Notes under the pieces: model-generated | Told to the model about the DNA's origin: nothing | Seen by the model: the letters and a program-made list of their open reading frames with translations, nothing else | The model's database searches: none | Translations under genes and position numbers: made by a program | In this document: piece by piece, positions 1,644 to 8,626 of the stretch | Layout of the letters: the number at the start of each line of letters is the position of its first letter | How positions within the stretch are numbered: position 1 is the first letter of the stretch | DNA from: a virus | Lineage: Duplodnaviria; Heunggongvirae; Uroviricota; Caudoviricetes | Length of the DNA: 8,626 bases | Reading direction: 5' to 3' (one strand) | IMG/VR virus record: IMGVR_UViG_2698536618_000012 | Location: 1-8,626 of that record

Positions 1644-1818
1644 AACTGCGGGTGCTTGAGGCTATCTGTCTCAGGCATGAACACCAAAAGGCAGATAGAG
1701 AAAAGCCCCAGTTAACATTACGCGTCCTGCAAGACGCTTAACATTAATCTGAGGCCATATCTATGCGACACATAGAGATTAGCCTCTTACGGACCGAAAG
1801 GTCAAGGAGAAGCAGGCT

Positions 1819-1974
1819 ATGAAGCAGCAAAAGGCGATGTTAATCGCCCTGATCGTCATCTGTTTAACCGTCATAGTGACGGCACTGGTAACGAGGAAAG
1901 ACCTCTGCGAGGTACGAATCCGAACCGGCCAGACGGAGGTCGCTGTCTTCACAGCTTACGAACCTGAGGAGTAA
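1819..1974 (+). CDS. hokD: Hok/Gef-family type I toxin (51 aa)
   Basis: Own translation MKQQKAMLIALIVICLTVIVTALVTRKDLCEVRIRTGQTEVAVFTAYEPEE matches the Hok/Gef family signature (single TM helix then TRKDLCEV..R..GQTEVAVF.AYE); to my recollection it matches HokD (RelF) of the E. coli Qin prophage. Confidence 0.88.
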   Translation: MKQQKAMLIALIVICLTVIVTALVTRKDLCEVRIRTGQTEVAVFTAYEPEE

Positions 1975-2788: not shown

Positions 2789-3838
2789 GTGCGGGTATTA
2801 CTTCGACCTGTTCTGGTACCGGAACTCGGGCTGGTGATCGTTAAGCCGGGCCGTGAATCCATGCCGGTATTCCACAATACCCGGGTACTGGTGGAGCCGG
2901 AACCGAAAAGCATGCGTAATCTGCCGTCCGGGGTCGTTCCTGCCGTTCGCCAGCCGCTGGCGGAGGATAAATCATTACTGCCATTTTTCAGCGACGAACG
3001 AGTGATTCGTGCTGCTGGTGGCGCTGGCGCATTGTCTGACTGGTTACTGCGCCATGTTAAATCCTGCCAGTGGCCACACGGCGATTATCACCACAGTGAA
3101 ACCGTCATTCACCGTTATGGTACCGGCGCAATGGTGTTGTGCTGGCACTGCGACAACCAGTTGCGTGATCAGACCTCCGAATCACTTGAGCAACTTGCTC
3201 ACCGAAACTTGTCAGCATGGATGATTGACGTCATTCGTCACGCAATGAATGGCACACAGGAGCGTGAATTATCGCTGGCTGAATTATCCTGGTGGGCGGC
3301 CTGCAATCAGGTGGTGGATGCACTACCTGAGGCAGTAGCGCGTCGTTCGCTGGGATTACCAGCGGAAAAAATCCGCTCCGTATACCGTGAGAGTGACATC
3401 GTACCGGGAGAACAGACAGCCATCAGCATACTGAAGCAGCGCACAAAAAATATTGCGCTGCCACTTCACGTCCACCAGCAACAAAATCCACCACAGAAAA
3501 AAACGGTTGTCAGTATCGCCGTTGATCCGGAGTCTCCTGAATCGTTCATGAGGCGACCTAAACGTTGCCGTTGGGTTAATGAGAAATACACGCGCTGGGT
3601 AAAGACACAGCCGTGTGCGTGTTGTGGTAAGCCTGCTGACGATCCGCATCACCTGATTGGTCATGGTCAGGGGGGAATGGGGACAAAGGCCCACGATATT
3701 TTCACGCTACCGTTGTGCCGGGAGCACCACAACGAACTTCATGCAGACCCGCTGGAGTTTGAGAAAAAGTACGGCTCTCAGATTGAGTTAATTTTTCGTT
3801 TTCTTGATCACGCCTTTGCAACTGGCGTGCTTGGGTAA
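2789..3838 (+). CDS. ydfU: DUF968/YdfU-like prophage protein (349 aa) with a C-terminal HNH-like Cys/His motif (putative nuclease)
   Basis: GTG start 2789 with GGAGG 4 nt upstream. C-terminal PCACCGKPADDPHHLIGHGQGG...LPLCREHHNELH is HNH/zinc-finger-like; a second Cys/His cluster is CQWPHGDYHH...CWHCDNQ. Length and position upstream of rusA fit the YdfU/DUF968 family as I recall it. Confidence 0.75.
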   Translation: MRVLLRPVLVPELGLVIVKPGRESMPVFHNTRVLVEPEPKSMRNLPSGVVPAVRQPLAEDKSLLPFFSDERVIRAAGGAGALSDWLLRHVKSCQWPHGDYHHSETVIHRYGTGAMVLCWHCDNQLRDQTSESLEQLAHRNLSAWMIDVIRHAMNGTQERELSLAELSWWAACNQVVDALPEAVARRSLGLPAEKIRSVYRESDIVPGEQTAISILKQRTKNIALPLHVHQQQNPPQKKTVVSIAVDPESPESFMRRPKRCRWVNEKYTRWVKTQPCACCGKPADDPHHLIGHGQGGMGTKAHDIFTLPLCREHHNELHADPLEFEKKYGSQIELIFRFLDHAFATGVLG

Positions 3839-3850
3839 AAGAGGTGACTG

Positions 3851-4210
3851 ATGCTCATAGATTTGGTTTTACCTTACCCGCCGACGGTGAACACTTACTG
3901 GCGACGCCGTGGCAGCACATATTTTATCTCGGAGGAGGGAAAGCGTTATCGCCGGGCTGTGGCGCTTATTGTTCGCCAGCAGCGGCTGAAATTAAGCCTG
4001 TCCGGAAGGCTGGCGATAAAGGTGATTGCAGAGCCACCGGATAAGCGTCGTCGCGACCTGGACAACATTCTGAAAGCACCGCTGGATGCGCTGACGCATG
4101 CGGGAGTGCTCATTGATGATGAGCAGTTTGATGAAATCAATATTGTACGTGGTCAGCCAGTATCTGGTGGACGGCTGGGTGTGAAGATTTACAAAATTGA
4201 GAGTGAGTGA
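3851..4210 (+). CDS. rusA: RusA-family Holliday junction resolvase (crossover junction endodeoxyribonuclease)
   Basis: 119 aa with SD AGAGG 7 nt upstream. Translation carries the RusA hallmarks (N-terminal LPYPPTVNTYWRRRG, catalytic-region RRRDLDN, C-terminal GG.L...I) and aligns by eye with E. coli RusA. Confidence 0.9.
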   Translation: MLIDLVLPYPPTVNTYWRRRGSTYFISEEGKRYRRAVALIVRQQRLKLSLSGRLAIKVIAEPPDKRRRDLDNILKAPLDALTHAGVLIDDEQFDEINIVRGQPVSGGRLGVKIYKIESE

Positions 4211-4218
4211 GCGTAAAT

Positions 4219-4749
4219 ATGATATATCCGGAAATTACAGGCAAAAGCGGCGAACATTTACGCCTGAACACGCTGGAAGCAGTCTGGATCCAGGGGAAAT
4301 TACGGATGTGGGGGCGGTGGTCGTATATCGGTGGGGGTAAATCCGGAAATATGTTTAACCGGTTACTGGTTTCGAAAAAGCTGACGAAAACAGCAGTTAA
4401 TGAGGTTTTACGCAGAATGAAGAAATCCGGGCTGGAAAAACCGGAACTTGAGGCATTTTTTCGGGATATGACAAGAGGAAAGCAGAAGAGCTGGTTGTCA
4501 CATTGTACAGACACAGAGGCGTTGATTATTGATCGCGTTATCAGTGAGGTGCTTGGGGAATATCCCGGGCTAATCAATATTCTCCGGCAAAGGTACGAAG
4601 GACGGGGAATGAGTAAGAGAAAAATGGCAGAATGTTTAAATCGTACTCACCCGGAATGGTGTTTCAGCACATGTGAGAAACGTATTGCAGGTTGGTTAGC
4701 CGTGGCTGAACACATGCTTTATGTACCTATGCACGATTCATTTCGATAA
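4219..4749 (+). CDS. putative late-gene antiterminator (Q-like) protein, 176 aa; functional assignment is positional
   Basis: ORF immediately downstream of rusA (the canonical Q position in lambdoid phages) and followed by a hairpin-rich leader and strong intrinsic terminator. ATG 4219 is preferred over GTG 4207, which overlaps the rusA stop. No Q-family motif could be verified by eye. Confidence 0.55.
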   Translation: MIYPEITGKSGEHLRLNTLEAVWIQGKLRMWGRWSYIGGGKSGNMFNRLLVSKKLTKTAVNEVLRRMKKSGLEKPELEAFFRDMTRGKQKSWLSHCTDTEALIIDRVISEVLGEYPGLINILRQRYEGRGMSKRKMAECLNRTHPEWCFSTCEKRIAGWLAVAEHMLYVPMHDSFR

Positions 4750-4845
4750 AAAAAGCTTGCTTTTTTACGCAGAAACAGCTTGAATTCCTGTAAGCTTCGC
4801 AAAGCTGTATCGCGAGGCGAAATGCAAGTTTTTTCGCACAAGGAA

Positions 4846-4867
4846 GCCACCGGAAGGTGGTTTTTTT
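4846..4867 (+). terminator. strong intrinsic terminator after the Q-like gene (tR'-like)
   Basis: GCCACC-ggaa-GGTGG(T) stem followed by TTTTTTT. Preceded by another hairpin, GCGAAA-tgcaagttt-TTTCGC (4817-4837). Confidence 0.75.
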
Positions 4868-4990
4868 GTGTCCGTAATATACAGCAGCGCAATAAATTCG
4901 CTGGTGGTTATTAATACCGTTCTTTCAGCTTGCTGGCTTTTTCGACAAGAGTTATTGGTGTGTCACGTTAACCGGAAAAGGGAAAAAGGC

Positions 4991-5188
4991 ATGCTAAAAC
5001 AGCAGGATATGACCGAAACCGCCAGAGTGGTGTTTAATGAATTAAGCGTCACCGAACCGGCGACCGTCGAGGAAATTGCGCAGAACACTTATCTTTCACG
5101 CGAACGCTGCCAGTTAATACTGACCCAGCTTGTTATGGCGGGTCTGGCAGATTATCAGTTCGGTTGTTACAGACGCCTTCCTCAGTGA
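4991..5188 (+). CDS. small winged-helix DNA-binding protein (65 aa), PapI/FaeA-like or controller-like regulator
   Basis: Internal ATG of track ORF 4868..5188 with SD AAGGGAAAAAGG. TVEEIAQNTYLSRERCQLILTQLVMAGLADYQFGCYRRL has a helix-turn-helix-wing pattern. The GTG-extended N-terminus (4868-4990) looks non-coding. Confidence 0.5.
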   Translation: MLKQQDMTETARVVFNELSVTEPATVEEIAQNTYLSRERCQLILTQLVMAGLADYQFGCYRRLPQ

Positions 5189-5198
5189 AGGCTTTTTT
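5175..5198 (+). terminator. intrinsic terminator overlapping the stop codon of the wHTH gene
   Basis: GCCTTC-ctcagt-GAAGGC: 6-bp stem followed by TTTTTTATTT. Confidence 0.6.
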
Positions 5199-5338: not shown

Positions 5339-6418
5339 ATGGCTAATACTGTAAAAATATCCAGTTGTGAGTTAATCAACGCTGATTGCCTGGAATTTAT
5401 CCAGACCTTACCGGAAAACTCTGTCGATCTGATAGTCACAGACCCGCCATACTTTAAAGTGAAGCCCGAGGGCTGGGATAACCAGTGGAAGGGCGACGAT
5501 GATTACCTGAAGTGGCTGGACCAGTGTCTGGCGCAGTTCTGGCGGGTGCTGAAACCTGCCGGAAGTCTTTACCTGTTCTGTGGCCATCGCCTGGCATCTG
5601 ATATCGAAATCATGATGCGTGAACGCTTCAGTGTGCTGAACCATATTATCTGGGCGAAGCCGTCCGGACGCTGGAACGGATGCAACAAGGAAAGCCTGCG
5701 GGCGTATTTCCCCGCCACAGAGCGCATTCTGTTCGCGGAACATTATCAGGGGCCGTATCGTCCGAAAGATGCCGGGTATGCGGCGAAGGGCAGTGCACTG
5801 AAACAGCATGTGATGGCCCCGCTGATTTCTTACTTTCGTGATGCGCGTGCTGCTCTGGGGATAACGGCAAAACAGATTGCAGATGCCACAGGAAAGAAAA
5901 ACATGGTGTCGCACTGGTTCAGTGCCAGTCAGTGGCAGCTACCGAACGAAAGCGATTATCTGAAATTACAGTCGCTGTTTGCCCGGGTGGCAGAAGAGAA
6001 ACATCAGCGGGGTGAACTGGAAAAGCCACATCACCAACTGGTCAGCACATACAGTGAGCTGAACCGGCAAAACCGGCAATATGCCAGCCTGCTGGAGGAG
6101 TACAAATCTTTGCGGCGTTATTTTTCTGTATCGGCTGCTGTTCCGTATACGGATGTCTGGATGTATAAGCCTGTACAGTATTATCCGGGCAAACACCCCT
6201 GTGAAAAACCGGCAGATATGTTGCGTCAGATAATAGAGGCCAGCAGTCGTCCGGGTGATTTGGTTGCCGACTTTTTTATGGGGTCAGGTTCCACGATAAA
6301 AGCCGCGCTTTCGCTTGGTCGTCGGGCAATAGGCGTTGAGCTTGAGGCTGAACGGTTTGAGCAGACGGTGAGCGAGATAAGAGAAATTCTGACGTGTAAA
6401 GCTGTTGAAAATATATAA
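5339..6418 (+). CDS. orphan beta-class DNA methyltransferase (N6_N4_Mtase family; DPPY motif suggests N6-adenine)
   Basis: 359 aa. Catalytic motif IV DLIVTDPPYF lies near the N-terminus and the AdoMet-binding motif I DFFMGSGST near the C-terminus, with a roughly 200-aa target-recognition region between. This is the beta-class order, and overall architecture resembles YhdJ-like adenine methyltransferases. No restriction endonuclease gene is evident nearby. Confidence 0.9.
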   Translation: MANTVKISSCELINADCLEFIQTLPENSVDLIVTDPPYFKVKPEGWDNQWKGDDDYLKWLDQCLAQFWRVLKPAGSLYLFCGHRLASDIEIMMRERFSVLNHIIWAKPSGRWNGCNKESLRAYFPATERILFAEHYQGPYRPKDAGYAAKGSALKQHVMAPLISYFRDARAALGITAKQIADATGKKNMVSHWFSASQWQLPNESDYLKLQSLFARVAEEKHQRGELEKPHHQLVSTYSELNRQNRQYASLLEEYKSLRRYFSVSAAVPYTDVWMYKPVQYYPGKHPCEKPADMLRQIIEASSRPGDLVADFFMGSGSTIKAALSLGRRAIGVELEAERFEQTVSEIREILTCKAVENI

Positions 6419-6480
6419 GTATGGGGTGTAAAGTTGTTCTCGAAAATAATCATGTTTTCTCACGAATCAGAGGGGGGATA

Positions 6481-6741
6481 ATGATTGAGGTTCGATGGAC
6501 AAGGACAGCCCTGAAGCAGTTACTTCGTGTGGATACGCGGTATCGGCAGGCGATAAAGGATAAGGTCGGTGCGCTAAAGGATTTTCCTCTGGTAGCCATG
6601 GATTTTAAAAAGCTATCAGGGAGTGACAATCGATTCCGTTTGAGGGTCGGCGTGTACAGGGTTATTTTTGATGTTGAGGATGGTGATCCTGTTGTCCTGG
6701 ATATTAAGGAAATTAAGCGCAGAAGCACAACCACATACTAA
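6481..6741 (+). CDS. type II toxin, RelE/ParE superfamily (toxin-first, HigB-like gene order)
   Basis: ATG 6481 with strong SD GAGGGGGG 5 nt upstream. The 86-aa product has the RelE/ParE pattern (..RFRLRVGVYRVIFDVEDGDPVVLDIKEIKRR...Y). The track ORF start at 6421 is probably an over-extension. Confidence 0.8.
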   Translation: MIEVRWTRTALKQLLRVDTRYRQAIKDKVGALKDFPLVAMDFKKLSGSDNRFRLRVGVYRVIFDVEDGDPVVLDIKEIKRRSTTTY

Positions 6742-6801
6742 GGGAGGCTGGCGGGAGACCGCCAGTTTGCTGAACGACATTCAATCGCGAAAGGCAATGA
6801 T

Positions 6802-7176
6802 ATGAAAAACAGTGTCCAGTTTATTACTGATAATGCCGGTGTTAGAACCGGGGTCATTATGTCAGTTGCTGAATATGAACGGCTGTTAAGTCTGGCAGAT
6901 CCTGATGATGATTTTGAAAGCATCCAGTATGAAGCCGGAGAGCATGACAATGAAACAATACCTCATGAAGTAGTATCCATCATGATTGATGATGATGTGT
7001 CATTGTTGGCAGCATGGCGGATTTACAGGCGAATGACTCAACAGGAAGTGGCGGAGCGCCTGGGGGTTAAACAGTCAGCCGTATCTCAGTTTGAGAGAGC
7101 AGGAGCTCCGCGAAAATCAACACTGGAAAAACTGGCTGAGATTTACAACTGCCGACCAAATCAGTTGGCTGATTAA
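6802..7176 (+). CDS. antitoxin with N-terminal Phd/YefM-like segment and C-terminal XRE-type HTH (124 aa)
   Basis: AAGG 7 nt upstream of ATG. N-terminus NAGVRTGVIMSVAEYERLLSL resembles the YefM/Phd motif; C-terminus LLAAWRIYRRMTQQEVAERLGVKQSAVSQFERAG...LEKLAEIY is a classic HTH_XRE. Lies directly downstream of the toxin. Confidence 0.8.
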   Translation: MKNSVQFITDNAGVRTGVIMSVAEYERLLSLADPDDDFESIQYEAGEHDNETIPHEVVSIMIDDDVSLLAAWRIYRRMTQQEVAERLGVKQSAVSQFERAGAPRKSTLEKLAEIYNCRPNQLAD

Positions 7177-7346: not shown

Positions 7347-7482
7347 ATTTCCGCGCCACGCCCGGCGTACATCAAAAACCACAGAGCCTTTCAGGGGTGA
7401 GCTTACGGGATGGTCAGTGTGACTTTCTCTGTGGGCTGGTCACCCCCGGGCGCAGGCTCACCCACTAAAAGGAAAAGTCACG

Positions 7483-7914
7483 ATGTTTGGTATTTTCAAA
7501 AAGAAAACCCGCAGAGCAGCAACTGAAATTAAAAAGTTTGAGAAACGCGATCTGGCACAGGCGGTTATTAATGCTGCCTACCTGGTGGCCTATGCAGATG
7601 GTGAATGTGAGACTTCAGAGAAAGTGAAGATCGAACAGGTATTACGTAACCAGCCAGCATTGTCCGCATTTACGTCAGAAATTAATGCCATCAGTGCCAC
7701 GATCACAGGTCAGCTTGACACCAATTTTAAAATTGGTCGTCGTGCAGCGTTGCGTGAAATTGAAGATGTGAAACACGATACGCGTGAAGCGGAAGATGTG
7801 CTGGATGTGGCGGTGGCCATTGCTGAAGCAGATGGTGAAATTGAGCCGGAAGAGCGTAAGGTTCTGGAAGAGATTGCTGGTGTTCTTGGCCTGCGACTGG
7901 AGAACCACCTGTGA
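7483..7914 (+). CDS. TerB-domain protein (tellurite-resistance TerB-like, 143 aa)
   Basis: SD AAGGA 8 nt upstream. Two copies of the TerB-type helical motif (hydrophobic-x-A-x-A-D-G-x-acidic...E-K/R): AAYLVAYADGECETSEKVKIEQVL and DVAVAIAEADGEIEPEERKVLEEIAGVLGL. Confidence 0.7.
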   Translation: MFGIFKKKTRRAATEIKKFEKRDLAQAVINAAYLVAYADGECETSEKVKIEQVLRNQPALSAFTSEINAISATITGQLDTNFKIGRRAALREIEDVKHDTREAEDVLDVAVAIAEADGEIEPEERKVLEEIAGVLGLRLENHL

Positions 7915-8078
7915 CGGTAAAACTGCGTCTGGCCGCTGTGGCACTCCTGCTGTTTCTGGTGGTGATGGTGGATTTCACCAGCAGGATCATGTCGGTGCTG
8001 GCGGATGGAGTGCTGGTCTGCGGCATTGTGGTATTGCTGTGGCCGGTGATAAAAAGAAACAGCCTGCATAATGCTTGA
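7911..8078 (+). CDS. small two-helix membrane peptide (55 aa), translationally coupled to the TerB-like gene
   Basis: GTG 7911 overlaps the TerB stop (GTGA); GGAGAA sits 6 nt upstream. Own translation VTVKLRLAAVALLLFLVVMVDFTSRIMSVLADGVLVCGIVVLLWPVIKRNSLHNA shows two hydrophobic stretches. Not in the track (under 60 aa); an alternative start at ATG 7965 would give 37 aa. Confidence 0.45.
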   Translation: MTVKLRLAAVALLLFLVVMVDFTSRIMSVLADGVLVCGIVVLLWPVIKRNSLHNA

Positions 8079-8243
8079 TTTTTTTGTTTGCTGTTTATTA
8101 AAAACACTTCTGCATGGTGAATCCCCCTGTGCGGTGGGGCAATCAGCAAGAAGGAATATGGGGTAATCGCGGATTCAGGTGCTGATACTGAATTCACCGG
8201 GAGGCACCCGGCACCATGCAAGAAAAAGAATGTGCATGCAAAC

Positions 8244-8271
8244 ATGCCCCTCTCCGGAGGGGCATTTTTTA
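8244..8271 (+). terminator. strong intrinsic terminator (9-bp stem ATGCCCCTC-tccg-GAGGGGCAT followed by TTTTTT)
   Basis: Read directly from the sequence. An adjacent hairpin GCCCGAA-tggg-TTCGGGC (8284-8301), preceded by AAAAAA, would act as a terminator for the opposite strand, so the pair may be bidirectional. Confidence 0.7.
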
Positions 8272-8363
8272 TGGGTAAAAAATGCCCGAATGGGTTCGGG
8301 CAATAGCATGAGATACTGATATTGTTGTGTTGTTATCGTGTGGATTTTAACCAGGGTTTATCA

Positions 8364-8389
8364 GGCTGCGCAACTGCGTGGCCTTTTTT
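8364..8389 (+). terminator. candidate intrinsic terminator (8-bp stem with two G-U pairs, loop AACT, followed by TTTTTT)
   Basis: GGCTGCGC-aact-GCGTGGCC followed by TTTTTTC; a second terminator only about 95 nt after the previous one. Confidence 0.5.
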
Positions 8390-8396
8390 CATTTCT

Positions 8397-8443
8397 TGGG
8401 CTGTAGTCCCCGTGTGTCATTCAGGCTTCCGGACTACAGCCCA
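8397..8443. repeat. 13-bp perfect inverted repeat with 21-nt spacer (TGGGCTGTAGTCC ... GGACTACAGCCCA)
   Basis: Read directly from the sequence; lies about 45 nt upstream of the ATG at 8486. Confidence 0.7.
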
Positions 8444-8485
8444 CTCCATATCTGATTTAATACACTATCCCGGCCGGGAGGAATA

Positions 8486-8626
8486 ATGACATTTAAACAT
8501 TATGATGTTGTCAGGGCGGCGTCGCCGTCAGACCTTGCGGAAAAGCTGACACACAAACTGAAAGAGGGCTGGCAGCCGTTTGGTAGTCCGGTGGCCATAA
8601 CCCCTTATACCCTGATGCAGGCGATT
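8486..8626 (+). CDS. 5' part of a hypothetical phage protein (continues beyond the window)
   Basis: ATG 8486 with SD GGGAGG 4 nt upstream; open to the window end. Translation MTFKHYDVVRAASPSDLAEKLTHKLKEGWQPFGSPVAITPYTLMQAI. May be a DUF1737-type small protein found near lysis cassettes, but this is unverified. Confidence 0.6.
   Translation, partial: MTFKHYDVVRAASPSDLAEKLTHKLKEGWQPFGSPVAITPYTLMQAI

What the first reader, a model, noticed from the sequence alone, without database searches (positions are those of the whole stretch)
8111..8271. Multi-helix structured RNA candidate ending in a strong terminator (possible sRNA or 3'UTR element)
Seen: a 9-bp closing helix TGCATGGTG (8111-8119) / CACCATGCA (8212-8220) encloses nested hairpins: CCCC/GGGG (8123-8139), an 8-bp stem 8171-8178 / 8188-8195, and CCGGG-aggca-CCCGG (8197-8211). 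A GCATG-caaa-CATGC hairpin and the 9-bp-stem terminator 8244-8271 follow. No ORF of meaningful size lies here. The compact junction plus terminator resembles a stand-alone small RNA or a regulatory 3'UTR downstream of the TerB/membrane operon.
Basis: seen in the sequence. Interest (0 to 1): 0.5.

Follow-up and report, generated by a model that had tools for sequence, protein, structure and literature searches.

The report
Known prophage small RNA STnc100

Summary
Rfam matches window 8083-8276 (+) end to end with RF02076 STnc100 (139 bits; gathering score 47). The anti-GcvB sRNA AgvB lies convergent at 8338-8277 (-). This is the published 'dyad' of Hfq-binding sRNAs between a moron (here TerB/DUF3927) and the lysis-side genes of lambdoid prophages (Tree 2014). 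The Northern probe for EcOnc06, AgvB's partner in O157 Sakai (~177 nt), matches window 8156-8188 at 32 of 33 bases. Across 67 copies from Enterobacterales genomes, 92% of cells pair and 20 of 26 pairs show double changes. A promoter-like site ends about 7 nt before the closing helix, so a stand-alone ~165-nt sRNA is the best reading. Its probable action is Hfq-assisted base pairing through a swappable 3' tail; targets are unknown. Three observations go beyond the Rfam consensus line and the papers read. A covarying pseudoknot joins 8142-8148 to the P3 loop 8180-8186. The P4 hairpin is nearly invariant. Copies occur in tandem arrays beside phage tRNA genes. Verdict: already known, low interest, with a modest chance that the conserved core has a specific partner of its own.

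The parts
8075..8103 (+). Putative sigma-70 promoter of the sRNA. The -35 TTGATT (8075-8080) overlaps the DUF3927 stop codon; a 17-nt spacer follows; the -10 is TTAAAA (8098-8103). The predicted start is about 8109-8112.
   Evidence: Sequence. It scores 8 of 12 and is not reported by the stricter consensus scan. In the family, promoter-like sites ending 3-7 nt before P1 reach at least 8/12 in 57% of copies against 9% of shifted controls. Many relatives carry TTGACx-17-TAAATT there. Inferred, not mapped.
8111..8119 (+). P1 5' strand (closing helix), pairs with 8212-8220
   Evidence: 100% paired in A1, with 6-7 of 8 pairs showing changes on both sides.
8123..8138 (+). P2 hairpin. C8123-C8127 pair with G8133-G8138, U8135 is bulged, and the 5-nt loop is UGUGC (8128-8132).
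   Evidence: RNAalifold and pair counts. CC/GG changes to UU/AA and to GC in relatives. The loop consensus is U-R-W-G-C.
8142..8148 (+). Pseudoknot 5' strand AUCAGCA, pairs with 8180-8186
   Evidence: 53 distinct strand pairs at this position. Mean contiguous complementarity is 6.7 against 4.5 +/- 0.16 in loop-swap controls. Duplex energy -9.9 kcal/mol.
8171..8195 (+). P3 hairpin (GGAUUCAG 8171-8178 / CUGAAUUC 8188-8195). Its loop 8179-8187 carries the pseudoknot 3' strand UGCUGAU (8180-8186).
   Evidence: All 8 pairs of P3 show changes on both sides.
8197..8211 (+). P4 hairpin CCGGG-AGGCA-CCCGG, stacked directly on P1 with no junction base
   Evidence: ACCGGGAGGCACCCGG is unchanged in 89 of 95 distinct copies that were found through the 5' motif alone.
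8212..8220 (+). P1 3' strand
8220..8243 (+). Largely single-stranded, family-variable tail. 8220-8231 reads AAG-AAA-AAG-AAU, four A-R-N triplets. GCAUG 8234-8238 can pair with CAUGC 8243-8247.
   Evidence: Sequence. Cores at least 94% identical to this one carry three unrelated tails. That this is an Hfq distal-face site or a seed is inferred from the A-R-N rule in PMC4104026.
8244..8271 (+). Intrinsic terminator: 9-bp stem, UCCG loop, U6
8277..8338 (-). AgvB (anti-GcvB sRNA), convergent partner with its own terminator at 8302-8283
   Evidence: Rfam RF02702, 96.5 bits, 62 of 62 bases identical to the consensus; terminator scan.
7483..8078 (+). Upstream moron genes: TerB-family protein (7483-7914) and DUF3927 membrane protein (7911-8078)
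   Evidence: Pfam; RefSeq annotation of a 99.8% identical locus.
8486..8626 (+). Start of the DUF1737/SASA carbohydrate esterase (nanS-p-like) gene that precedes the holin and lysozyme genes
   Evidence: Pfam; annotation of L001.

Best explanation
Window ~8110-8271 (+) encodes a ~165-nt member of the STnc100 family of prophage small RNAs. Other names in this family are EcOnc04/05/06/27, sRNA103, and the related PasD. The closest characterised copy is EcOnc06, the partner of AgvB in E. coli O157 Sakai prophage Sp17.

Proposed workings, step by step:
1. It is transcribed from its own weak-to-moderate sigma-70 promoter, which overlaps the end of the DUF3927 gene.
2. It starts at the closing helix.
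3. It folds into a compact core of four helices (P1-P4) plus a pseudoknot between the strand just after P2 and the P3 loop.
4. The core is followed by an A-rich unpaired tail and an intrinsic terminator.
5. The most likely action is that of an Hfq-bound trans-acting RNA. The variable tail, possibly with other exposed bases, pairs with cellular or phage RNAs. The conserved core serves as a stabilising or recognition scaffold.
6. Its terminator and the back-to-back AgvB terminator also stop moron transcription short of the lysis-side genes in the lysogen. After induction, Q-modified polymerase from the late promoter reads through them.

Shown here: family membership, fold, position, and the conservation pattern.
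Shown by others for near-identical homologues: a discrete transcript and Hfq association.
Inferred: the start site, the tail as the pairing region, the insulating role, and read-through after induction.
For: - Rfam RF02076 full-length match: 139.4 bits against a gathering score of 47.
- AgvB lies convergent one base away. The gene order is Q-like antiterminator, methylase, toxin-antitoxin pair, TerB, DUF3927, sRNA pair, DUF1737 esterase, then holin and lysozyme. This matches the architecture described in PMC4104026 and PMC7873438.
- The EcOnc06 Northern probe target equals window 8156-8188 at 32 of 33 bases. EcOnc06 runs at ~177 nt. The 247-nt form of EcOnc27 is destabilised without hfq.
- STnc100_4 is Northern-positive in EDL933.
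- PasD is Hfq-dependent and has many RIL-seq partners.
- Covariation supports P1-P4 and the pseudoknot.
- Promoter-like sites are enriched immediately 5' of P1.
- In most relatives a 20-35 nt linker and then a terminator follow the core.
- Nearly identical cores carry unrelated tails.
- The element keeps its form whatever gene lies upstream: stx1, stx2, tRNAs or TerB.
Against: - There are no expression data for this exact locus.
- Its promoter scores only 8 of 12 and was missed by the standard scan.
- No target or phenotype is established for any family member. The reported fimZ/espA effects of sRNA103 have no mechanism.
- A plain base-pairing sRNA does not explain the near-invariant P4 hairpin, the invariant junction bases, or the covarying pseudoknot.
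- The tail as 'seed' is an inference.
- Ribosome footprints on some EDL933 copies are not negligible: ribosome coverage values (RCV) range from 0.04 to 3.2.
Confidence: 0.6

Rival explanations
1. The conserved pseudoknotted core is itself the functional unit. It would be a specific binding module for a protein, for RNA polymerase or the ribosome, or for a small ligand, used by the phage during lysogeny or lytic growth. Hfq-mediated pairing would be secondary.
For: - P4 is almost invariant, loop included, while P1, P3 and the pseudoknot change freely by compensation.
- The junction bases are invariant: AAU, the U-R-W-G-C loop, and GCG before P3.
- Tandem arrays hold 3-6 copies, each with its own pseudoknot sequence, and sit between Q and the lysis genes, often beside phage tRNA genes.
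- A divergent subclass keeps the fold in a different genomic position.
Against: - No partner is known.
- No protein gene was seen to co-occur with it consistently, beyond ordinary late-region synteny.
- No Rfam riboswitch or ribozyme family matches.
- The segment between core and terminator is not conserved, so there is no conserved switching platform.
- Hfq binding of homologues is documented.
Confidence: 0.22
2. It is only the 3' end of the TerB-DUF3927 transcript: a structured 3'UTR and terminator that insulate the lysis genes, with no independent promoter and no trans function.
For: - It begins about 30 nt after the DUF3927 stop codon.
- The standard promoter scan finds nothing.
- Three terminators lie within 140 nt.
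- In Stx2 phages it lies 75 nt after stxB.
Against: - The same unit follows unrelated upstream genes or tRNAs and forms arrays in which each copy has its own terminator.
- Promoter-like sites are enriched directly upstream of P1.
- A terminator does not need a covarying 110-nt pseudoknotted core.
- Homologues give discrete ~177-247 nt RNAs bound by Hfq.
Confidence: 0.12
3. It encodes a small protein: the 20-codon ORF 8216-8278 (MQEKECACKHAPLRRGIFYG), preceded by the GGGAGG of P4.
For: - GGGAGG lies at 8199-8204, 11 nt before the ATG at 8216.
- Some STnc100 copies in EDL933 carry ribosome footprints, with RCV up to 3.2.
Against: - An ATG in the P1 3' strand is present in only 33 of 158 distinct family members.
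- The Shine-Dalgarno-like bases and the ATG are both buried in covarying helices.
- The ORF runs through the terminator.
- Other copies have RCV of 0.04-0.6.
Confidence: 0.03

Closest known systems
Rfam RF02076 STnc100 (Gammaproteobacterial sRNA, first listed in Salmonella)
   Same: Full-length match at 139 bits. It has the same helices P1-P4, the same terminator and the same prophage setting.
   Different: Nothing essential. The Rfam match starts at 8083 and so includes the promoter region, whereas the RNA probably starts near 8110. The consensus line as printed carries no pseudoknot.
EcOnc06 of E. coli O157:H7 Sakai prophage Sp17 (also EcOnc04, EcOnc05, EcOnc27 = sRNA103)
   Same: It is the convergent partner of AgvB between the moron and the lysis-side genes. 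Its probe target is 32 of 33 bases identical to window 8156-8188. It is an Hfq-crosslinked RNA of ~177 nt.
   Different: This copy sits in another strain and prophage and differs by a few substitutions. EcOnc04, 05 and 27 carry different 3' tails on the same core.
PasD1/PasD2 of EPEC E2348/69
   Same: Reported to share structure and ancestry with STnc100. Hfq-dependent, prophage-encoded, next to the esterase and lysis genes.
   Different: The sequences are too diverged for BLAST, and the reported seeds and target sets differ. Not compared directly here.
AgvB/AsxR anti-sRNAs
   Same: Same locus, same 'conserved module plus variable pairing segment' design, and Hfq-binding.
   Different: They lie on the opposite strand, are 51-60 nt long, have no multi-helix core, and their variable part is at the 5' end.
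Short PR'-tR' late-leader RNAs (lambda 6S RNA from my own knowledge; StxS)
   Same: A constitutive promoter, a short terminated RNA and a site upstream of the lysis genes. StxS is an Hfq-binding sRNA.
   Different: In this window a separate promoter-like site and terminator lie directly after the Q-like gene (terminator 4848-4870), so STnc100 is not that leader. No sequence or fold similarity is known.

Membership tests
Rfam RF02076 STnc100 | Covariance-model score at or above the curated gathering score, over the whole model | tested here: met
   139.4 bits against 47, model positions 1-206 of 206, E = 1e-32.
Rfam RF02076 STnc100 | Closing helix enclosing three hairpins, followed by a Rho-independent terminator | tested here: met
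   All are present at 8111-8271. They are supported by covariation in 67 genomic and 136 viral copies.
Rfam RF02076 STnc100 | Prophage location between the late antiterminator/moron region and the lysis genes | tested here: met
   Pfam and RefSeq context. The same is seen in L007, L023, L199 and L202.
Rfam RF02076 STnc100 | Expressed as a discrete small RNA | not testable with these tools
   Literature only. EcOnc06 runs at ~177 nt and its probe target is 32 of 33 bases identical to the window. STnc100_4 is Northern-positive.
Hfq-dependent trans-acting sRNA | Intrinsic terminator with a U tail, plus an unpaired Hfq-binding or pairing segment | tested here: met
   Terminator 8244-8271. A-R-N x4 at 8220-8231.
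Hfq-dependent trans-acting sRNA | Binds Hfq and pairs with defined targets | not testable with these tools
   Hfq CRAC and RIL-seq data exist for homologues. No validated target exists for any member.
Transcription-terminating riboswitch | Conserved aptamer coupled to a conserved alternative-pairing platform upstream of the regulated gene | tested here: not met
   The core is conserved, but the segment between core and terminator is replaced wholesale among near-identical cores. A convergent sRNA gene and further terminators separate it from the next gene. No Rfam riboswitch matches.
HK022 put-type antiterminator RNA | About 70 nt, two stem-loops just downstream of an early promoter, acting in cis on RNA polymerase | tested here: not met
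   The model R1 finds nothing in HK022 at E up to 10. The architectures differ. STnc100 terminates at its own terminator.
3'UTR-derived sRNA | No promoter of its own; 5' end made by processing of the upstream mRNA | tested here: inconclusive
   Promoter-like sites are enriched in the family, but this copy scores only 8 of 12 and was not picked up by the scan. No 5' end data are available.
IpeX (DLP12 prophage sRNA) | Encoded next to nmpC between quuD and the lysis genes of DLP12 | tested here: not met
   R1 finds no copy in K-12 570000-582000.

The most novel reading that the evidence does not exclude
The STnc100 core is not just a scaffold for a base-pairing tail. It would be a compact pseudoknotted RNA with a sequence-specific recognition hairpin (P4), and it would bind a defined partner such as a phage or host protein, RNA polymerase, the ribosome or a ligand. 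That would explain three things: temperate phages of Enterobacterales keep it in arrays next to their tRNA genes between Q and the lysis genes; a divergent subclass sits downstream of the repressor gene of integrase-bearing elements; and the 'dyad' arrangement has remained unexplained.
Probability: 0.2. Interest if true: 0.65.

Novelty: already known. Interest (0 to 1): 0.22.

Why it matters
As an annotation this is routine. The window holds one more copy of a multicopy prophage sRNA found in about half of complete E. coli genomes, and RefSeq leaves it unannotated or covers it with a spurious antisense pseudo-CDS.

It matters somewhat because no mechanism is known for the family, although it sits beside Shiga toxin genes and variants in it were reported to predict HUS. 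The pseudoknot, the near-invariant P4 hairpin, the swappable tails and the arrays beside tRNA genes give concrete handles for experiments on what these RNAs do.

Tried and rejected
1. IpeX of prophage DLP12 as a family member. My model finds no copy in the K-12 DLP12 late region.
2. Kinship with HK022 put antiterminator RNA, prompted by the position of the divergent subclass after a cI-like gene. There is no hit in HK022 at E up to 10, and put is a two-stem-loop RNA.
3. STnc100 as the PR' late-leader RNA. In this window a separate promoter-like site and terminator lie directly after the Q-like gene, and in Stx phages PR' lies upstream of stx.
4. Riboswitch logic. In this copy P1-3' (8215-8220), 8233-8238, 8243-8247 and the terminator can form a chain of mutually exclusive hairpins. 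The tail is not conserved among near-identical cores, so this is not a family property.
5. Small ORF 8216-8278. Its ATG is not conserved in the family.
6. The PGAP 'hypothetical protein' over the core in some genomes. It is a partial antisense pseudo-CDS.
7. Matches to the 17-mer in Streptomyces and other GC-rich genomes. These are chance, with no model match.
8. The MAFFT alignment alone did not recover P3 or the pseudoknot. A covariance-model alignment and a per-sequence test were needed.
9. A tRNA-like reading of the core was considered from the sequence and dropped, because P4 has a 5-nt loop rather than a T-loop. ARAGORN was run only on related loci, not on the window.

Full report
**Observation.**
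- Closing helix: 8111-8119 with 8212-8220.
- C-run/G-run hairpin: 8123-8139.
- 8-bp stem: 8171-8178 with 8188-8195.
- CCGGG-AGGCA-CCCGG: 8197-8211.
- GCATG-CAAA-CATGC: 8234-8247.
- 9-bp terminator with T6: 8244-8271, also found by the scan.

The region folds better than shuffles, with z = -2.8 for 8111-8271 and z = -3.3 for 8083-8276. It pairs 8142-8148 with 8180-8186 instead.

**Identity.** Rfam matches window 8083-8276 (+) end to end with RF02076 STnc100 (139.4 bits, gathering score 47, E = 1e-32). One base further on, on the other strand, 8338-8277 is AgvB (RF02702, 96.5 bits), identical to the consensus at all 62 positions and carrying its own terminator. A sok RNA lies at 1650-1821.

**Setting.** Pfam gives this gene order:
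- DUF968 protein, 2789-3838
- RusA, 3851-4210
- Q-like antiterminator (DUF1133/antitermQ), 4207-4749
- DNA methylase, 5339-6418
- ParE/RelE-like toxin, 6421-6741
- HTH protein, 6802-7176
- TerB-family protein, 7483-7914
- DUF3927 protein, 7911-8078
- the sRNA pair
- a DUF1737 start at 8486

Bases 7400-8626 of the window are 99.8% identical to E. coli chromosomes. There the DUF1737 ORF is the N-terminus of a SASA carbohydrate esterase, followed by holin, lysozyme and terminase genes. This is the layout published by Tree et al.: convergent Hfq-binding sRNAs between a moron downstream of PR' and a conserved phage ORF, seen in eight Sakai prophages (PMC4104026). The review PMC7873438 names EcOnc06 as AgvB's partner and says the reason for the dyad arrangement is unclear.

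**Experimental support by homology.** In Tree et al.'s supplement, EcOnc06 (Sp17) gives a ~177 nt Northern band. EcOnc05 and EcOnc04 give ~222 nt. EcOnc27, after stx2B, gives ~235/247 nt, and the 247-nt form is destabilised in an hfq mutant. The EcOnc06 probe target matches window 8156-8188 at 32 of 33 bases, and the EcOnc05 target matches 8141-8175 at 31 of 35. EDL933 carries 11 STnc100 copies, one of them Northern-positive (PMC5331693). A 2026 preprint relates PasD to STnc100. PasD is Hfq-dependent and has many RIL-seq partners (PMC8550237). Variants in the copy after stx2B were reported as HUS-predictive, and overexpression of sRNA103 raised fimZ and espA transcripts by an unknown route. 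I found no validated target in the papers read.

**Distribution.** Bases 8100-8345 match 2667 of 5426 complete E. coli genomes, up to 11 places per genome. RefSeq does not annotate them. In phage records the hits are mostly Stx1- and Stx2-converting phages. The P4 17-mer hit at least 120 IMG/VR contigs. In species-representative genomes, every hit confirmed by my covariance model lies in Enterobacterales, apart from one 388-nt scaffold labelled Prolixibacteraceae. Genera include Salmonella, Klebsiella, Enterobacter, Kosakonia, Pantoea, Erwinia and Rahnella. The 17-mer hits in Actinobacteria and other phyla are chance matches.

**Structure by comparison.** I aligned 27 diverse cores (A1) and built a model (R1) from them. 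The model recovered 136 copies from viral contigs (A2) and 67 from genomes (A3).
- On A3, 92.4% of cells pair, against 76.5% after shuffling and 43-46% with slid partners.
- 20 of 26 pairs show changes on both sides: P1 7 of 8, P2 3 of 5, P3 8 of 8, P4 2 of 5.
- P2 is best drawn with a 5-nt loop (U-R-W-G-C) and one bulge.
- The 6-8 bases just after P2 are complementary to the P3 loop in nearly every copy. There are 53 distinct strand pairs, for example AUCAGCA/UGCUGAU, CCAGUC/GACUGG, CUGGUGU/ACACCGG, AAGGUUG/CAACCUU and AGACUGACAAA/UUUGUCAGUCU.
- Mean contiguous complementarity is 6.7, against 4.5 +/- 0.16 when loops are swapped among sequences (maximum 4.96 in 500 trials).

It is absent from the Rfam consensus line as printed and from the preprint that folded the family.

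P4 is nearly invariant even when copies are collected through the 5' motif alone: 89 of 95 are unchanged and the rest carry single substitutions.

**Transcript ends.** Many relatives carry a near-consensus promoter (TTGACx-17-TAAATT) ending 3-7 nt before P1. Promoter-like sites of at least 8/12 occur there in 57% of copies against 9% of shifted controls. The window has TTGATT (8075-8080), 17 nt, then TTAAAA (8098-8103). That scores 8 of 12 and falls below the threshold of the standard scan. Most copies then have 20-35 unpaired bases and an intrinsic terminator. I therefore place the RNA at about 8110-8271, roughly 165 nt. The Rfam match start at 8083 includes the promoter.

**Modularity.** Cores at least 94% identical to the window's carry three unrelated tails: this one, an EcOnc04-type tail and an EcOnc05-type tail. 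In 27% of pairs with cores at least 95% identical, the first 28 tail bases are under 60% identical. The window's tail begins AAG-AAA-AAG-AAU, four A-R-N triplets, which is the Hfq distal-face motif described in PMC4104026. This points to a conserved core with a swappable pairing or Hfq-binding segment, but that remains an inference.

**Mechanism.**
- Most likely (0.6): an Hfq-associated trans-acting sRNA. Its terminator, together with AgvB's, also insulates the lysis-side genes in the lysogen and is read through by Q-modified polymerase after induction.
- The core has its own specific partner (0.22). This is favoured by the invariant P4, the invariant junction bases, the pseudoknot and the arrays.
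- Mere 3'UTR and terminator (0.12). This is disfavoured by the variety of upstream genes, the arrays and the promoter enrichment.
- A 20-codon ORF at 8216-8278 (0.03). Its ATG is present in only 33 of 158 family members.

**Leads that failed.** IpeX, HK022 put, the PR' leader and a conserved riboswitch platform were each tested and rejected.

**Verdict.** The element is already known as STnc100, the EcOnc06-like partner of AgvB. Interest is low. The pseudoknot, the invariant hairpin, the modular tails, the arrays beside tRNA genes and the divergent subclass are useful additions to an RNA family whose function is still open.

Noticed in passing
window 8277-8338 (-): AgvB (anti-GcvB sponge sRNA), identical to the Rfam consensus at 62 of 62 bases. 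It is convergent with STnc100, and the two 3' ends abut with no overlap.
   Followed up: partly
window 8363-8384 (+), compared with L034, L057 and L065: A third terminator (AGGCTGCGCAACTGCGTGGCCT + T6) resembles the one that ends the EcOnc04-type tail in other prophages. This suggests that 8221-8340 (this tail, its terminator and AgvB) is a cassette inserted or exchanged ahead of an older terminator.
   Followed up: partly
window 8398-8442 (+): A perfect 12-bp inverted repeat, GGGCTGTAGTCC ... GGACTACAGCCC, with a 21-nt loop, lies 44 nt upstream of the esterase start codon. No Rfam match at E up to 1.
   Followed up: no
window 4750-4872 (+): Directly after the Q-like gene there is a promoter-like TTGAAT and a terminator GCCACCGGAAGGTGG + T7 (4848-4870). 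This looks like the PR'-tR' short leader, analogous to StxS. A 65-codon ORF (4992-5189) with its own terminator follows.
   Followed up: no
window 1650-1821 (+): A sok antitoxin RNA (Rfam, 106.7 bits). The matching RefSeq locus has a hokD toxin gene in its early region.
   Followed up: no
window 6421-7176 (+): A ParE/RelE-like toxin and an HTH protein (a likely toxin-antitoxin pair) sit within the moron block between the methylase and TerB.
   Followed up: no
L202 950-1988 (-), L182 3116-4485 (-), L199 6370-7001 (-), L012 2326-3350 (-), L022, L038, L075: STnc100 units occur in head-to-tail arrays of 3-6 copies at about 250-nt spacing. Many of the units examined end in their own terminator, and each has a different pseudoknot sequence. 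In L202 (a Pantoea plasmid) the array follows a DUF1133 Q-like gene; in L199 it precedes the lysozyme and Rz genes.
   Followed up: partly
L021 2795-3798, L045 4446-4995, L022, L012, L168, L182, L243 2147-2610: Phage tRNA genes (Met/Ile, Arg, Arg, Asn, Lys) lie on the same strand next to STnc100 copies in 8 of 20 loci checked. In stx-negative prophages the Ile/Arg/Arg cluster typical of Stx phages is followed directly by STnc100.
   Followed up: partly
L002 3515-3636 (-), L005, L009, L014, L015, L027, L049, L070, L080, L089: A divergent subclass has GAAUGCGGCUAUGCGCACGCGG in place of the C/G hairpin and longer pseudoknots of 7-11 bp. It scores 37-69 bits with my model. The five members scanned with Rfam (L005, L009, L014, L015, L049) fell below its gathering score. 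Promoter-like sites are not enriched upstream of it. In L002, L005, L009, L027 and L070 it lies downstream of a cI-like repressor gene, and four of these also carry an integrase gene downstream.
   Followed up: partly
L011 and L072, tails after the core: Some family tails contain CAACAACAAUACA, which resembles the GcvB-target-like CA-rich segment of AgvB. This hints that some STnc100 tails may also act as sponges.
   Followed up: no
L075 5220-5316, L036 8139-8235, L011 5465-5560: Rfam isrI (an Hfq-binding island sRNA) lies immediately beside STnc100 copies in several viral contigs.
   Followed up: no
L243 2491-2616 (E. coli UM146) and other ExPEC genomes: RefSeq annotates a partial antisense 'hypothetical protein' pseudo-CDS across the STnc100 core. 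This is a likely annotation artefact.
   Followed up: yes
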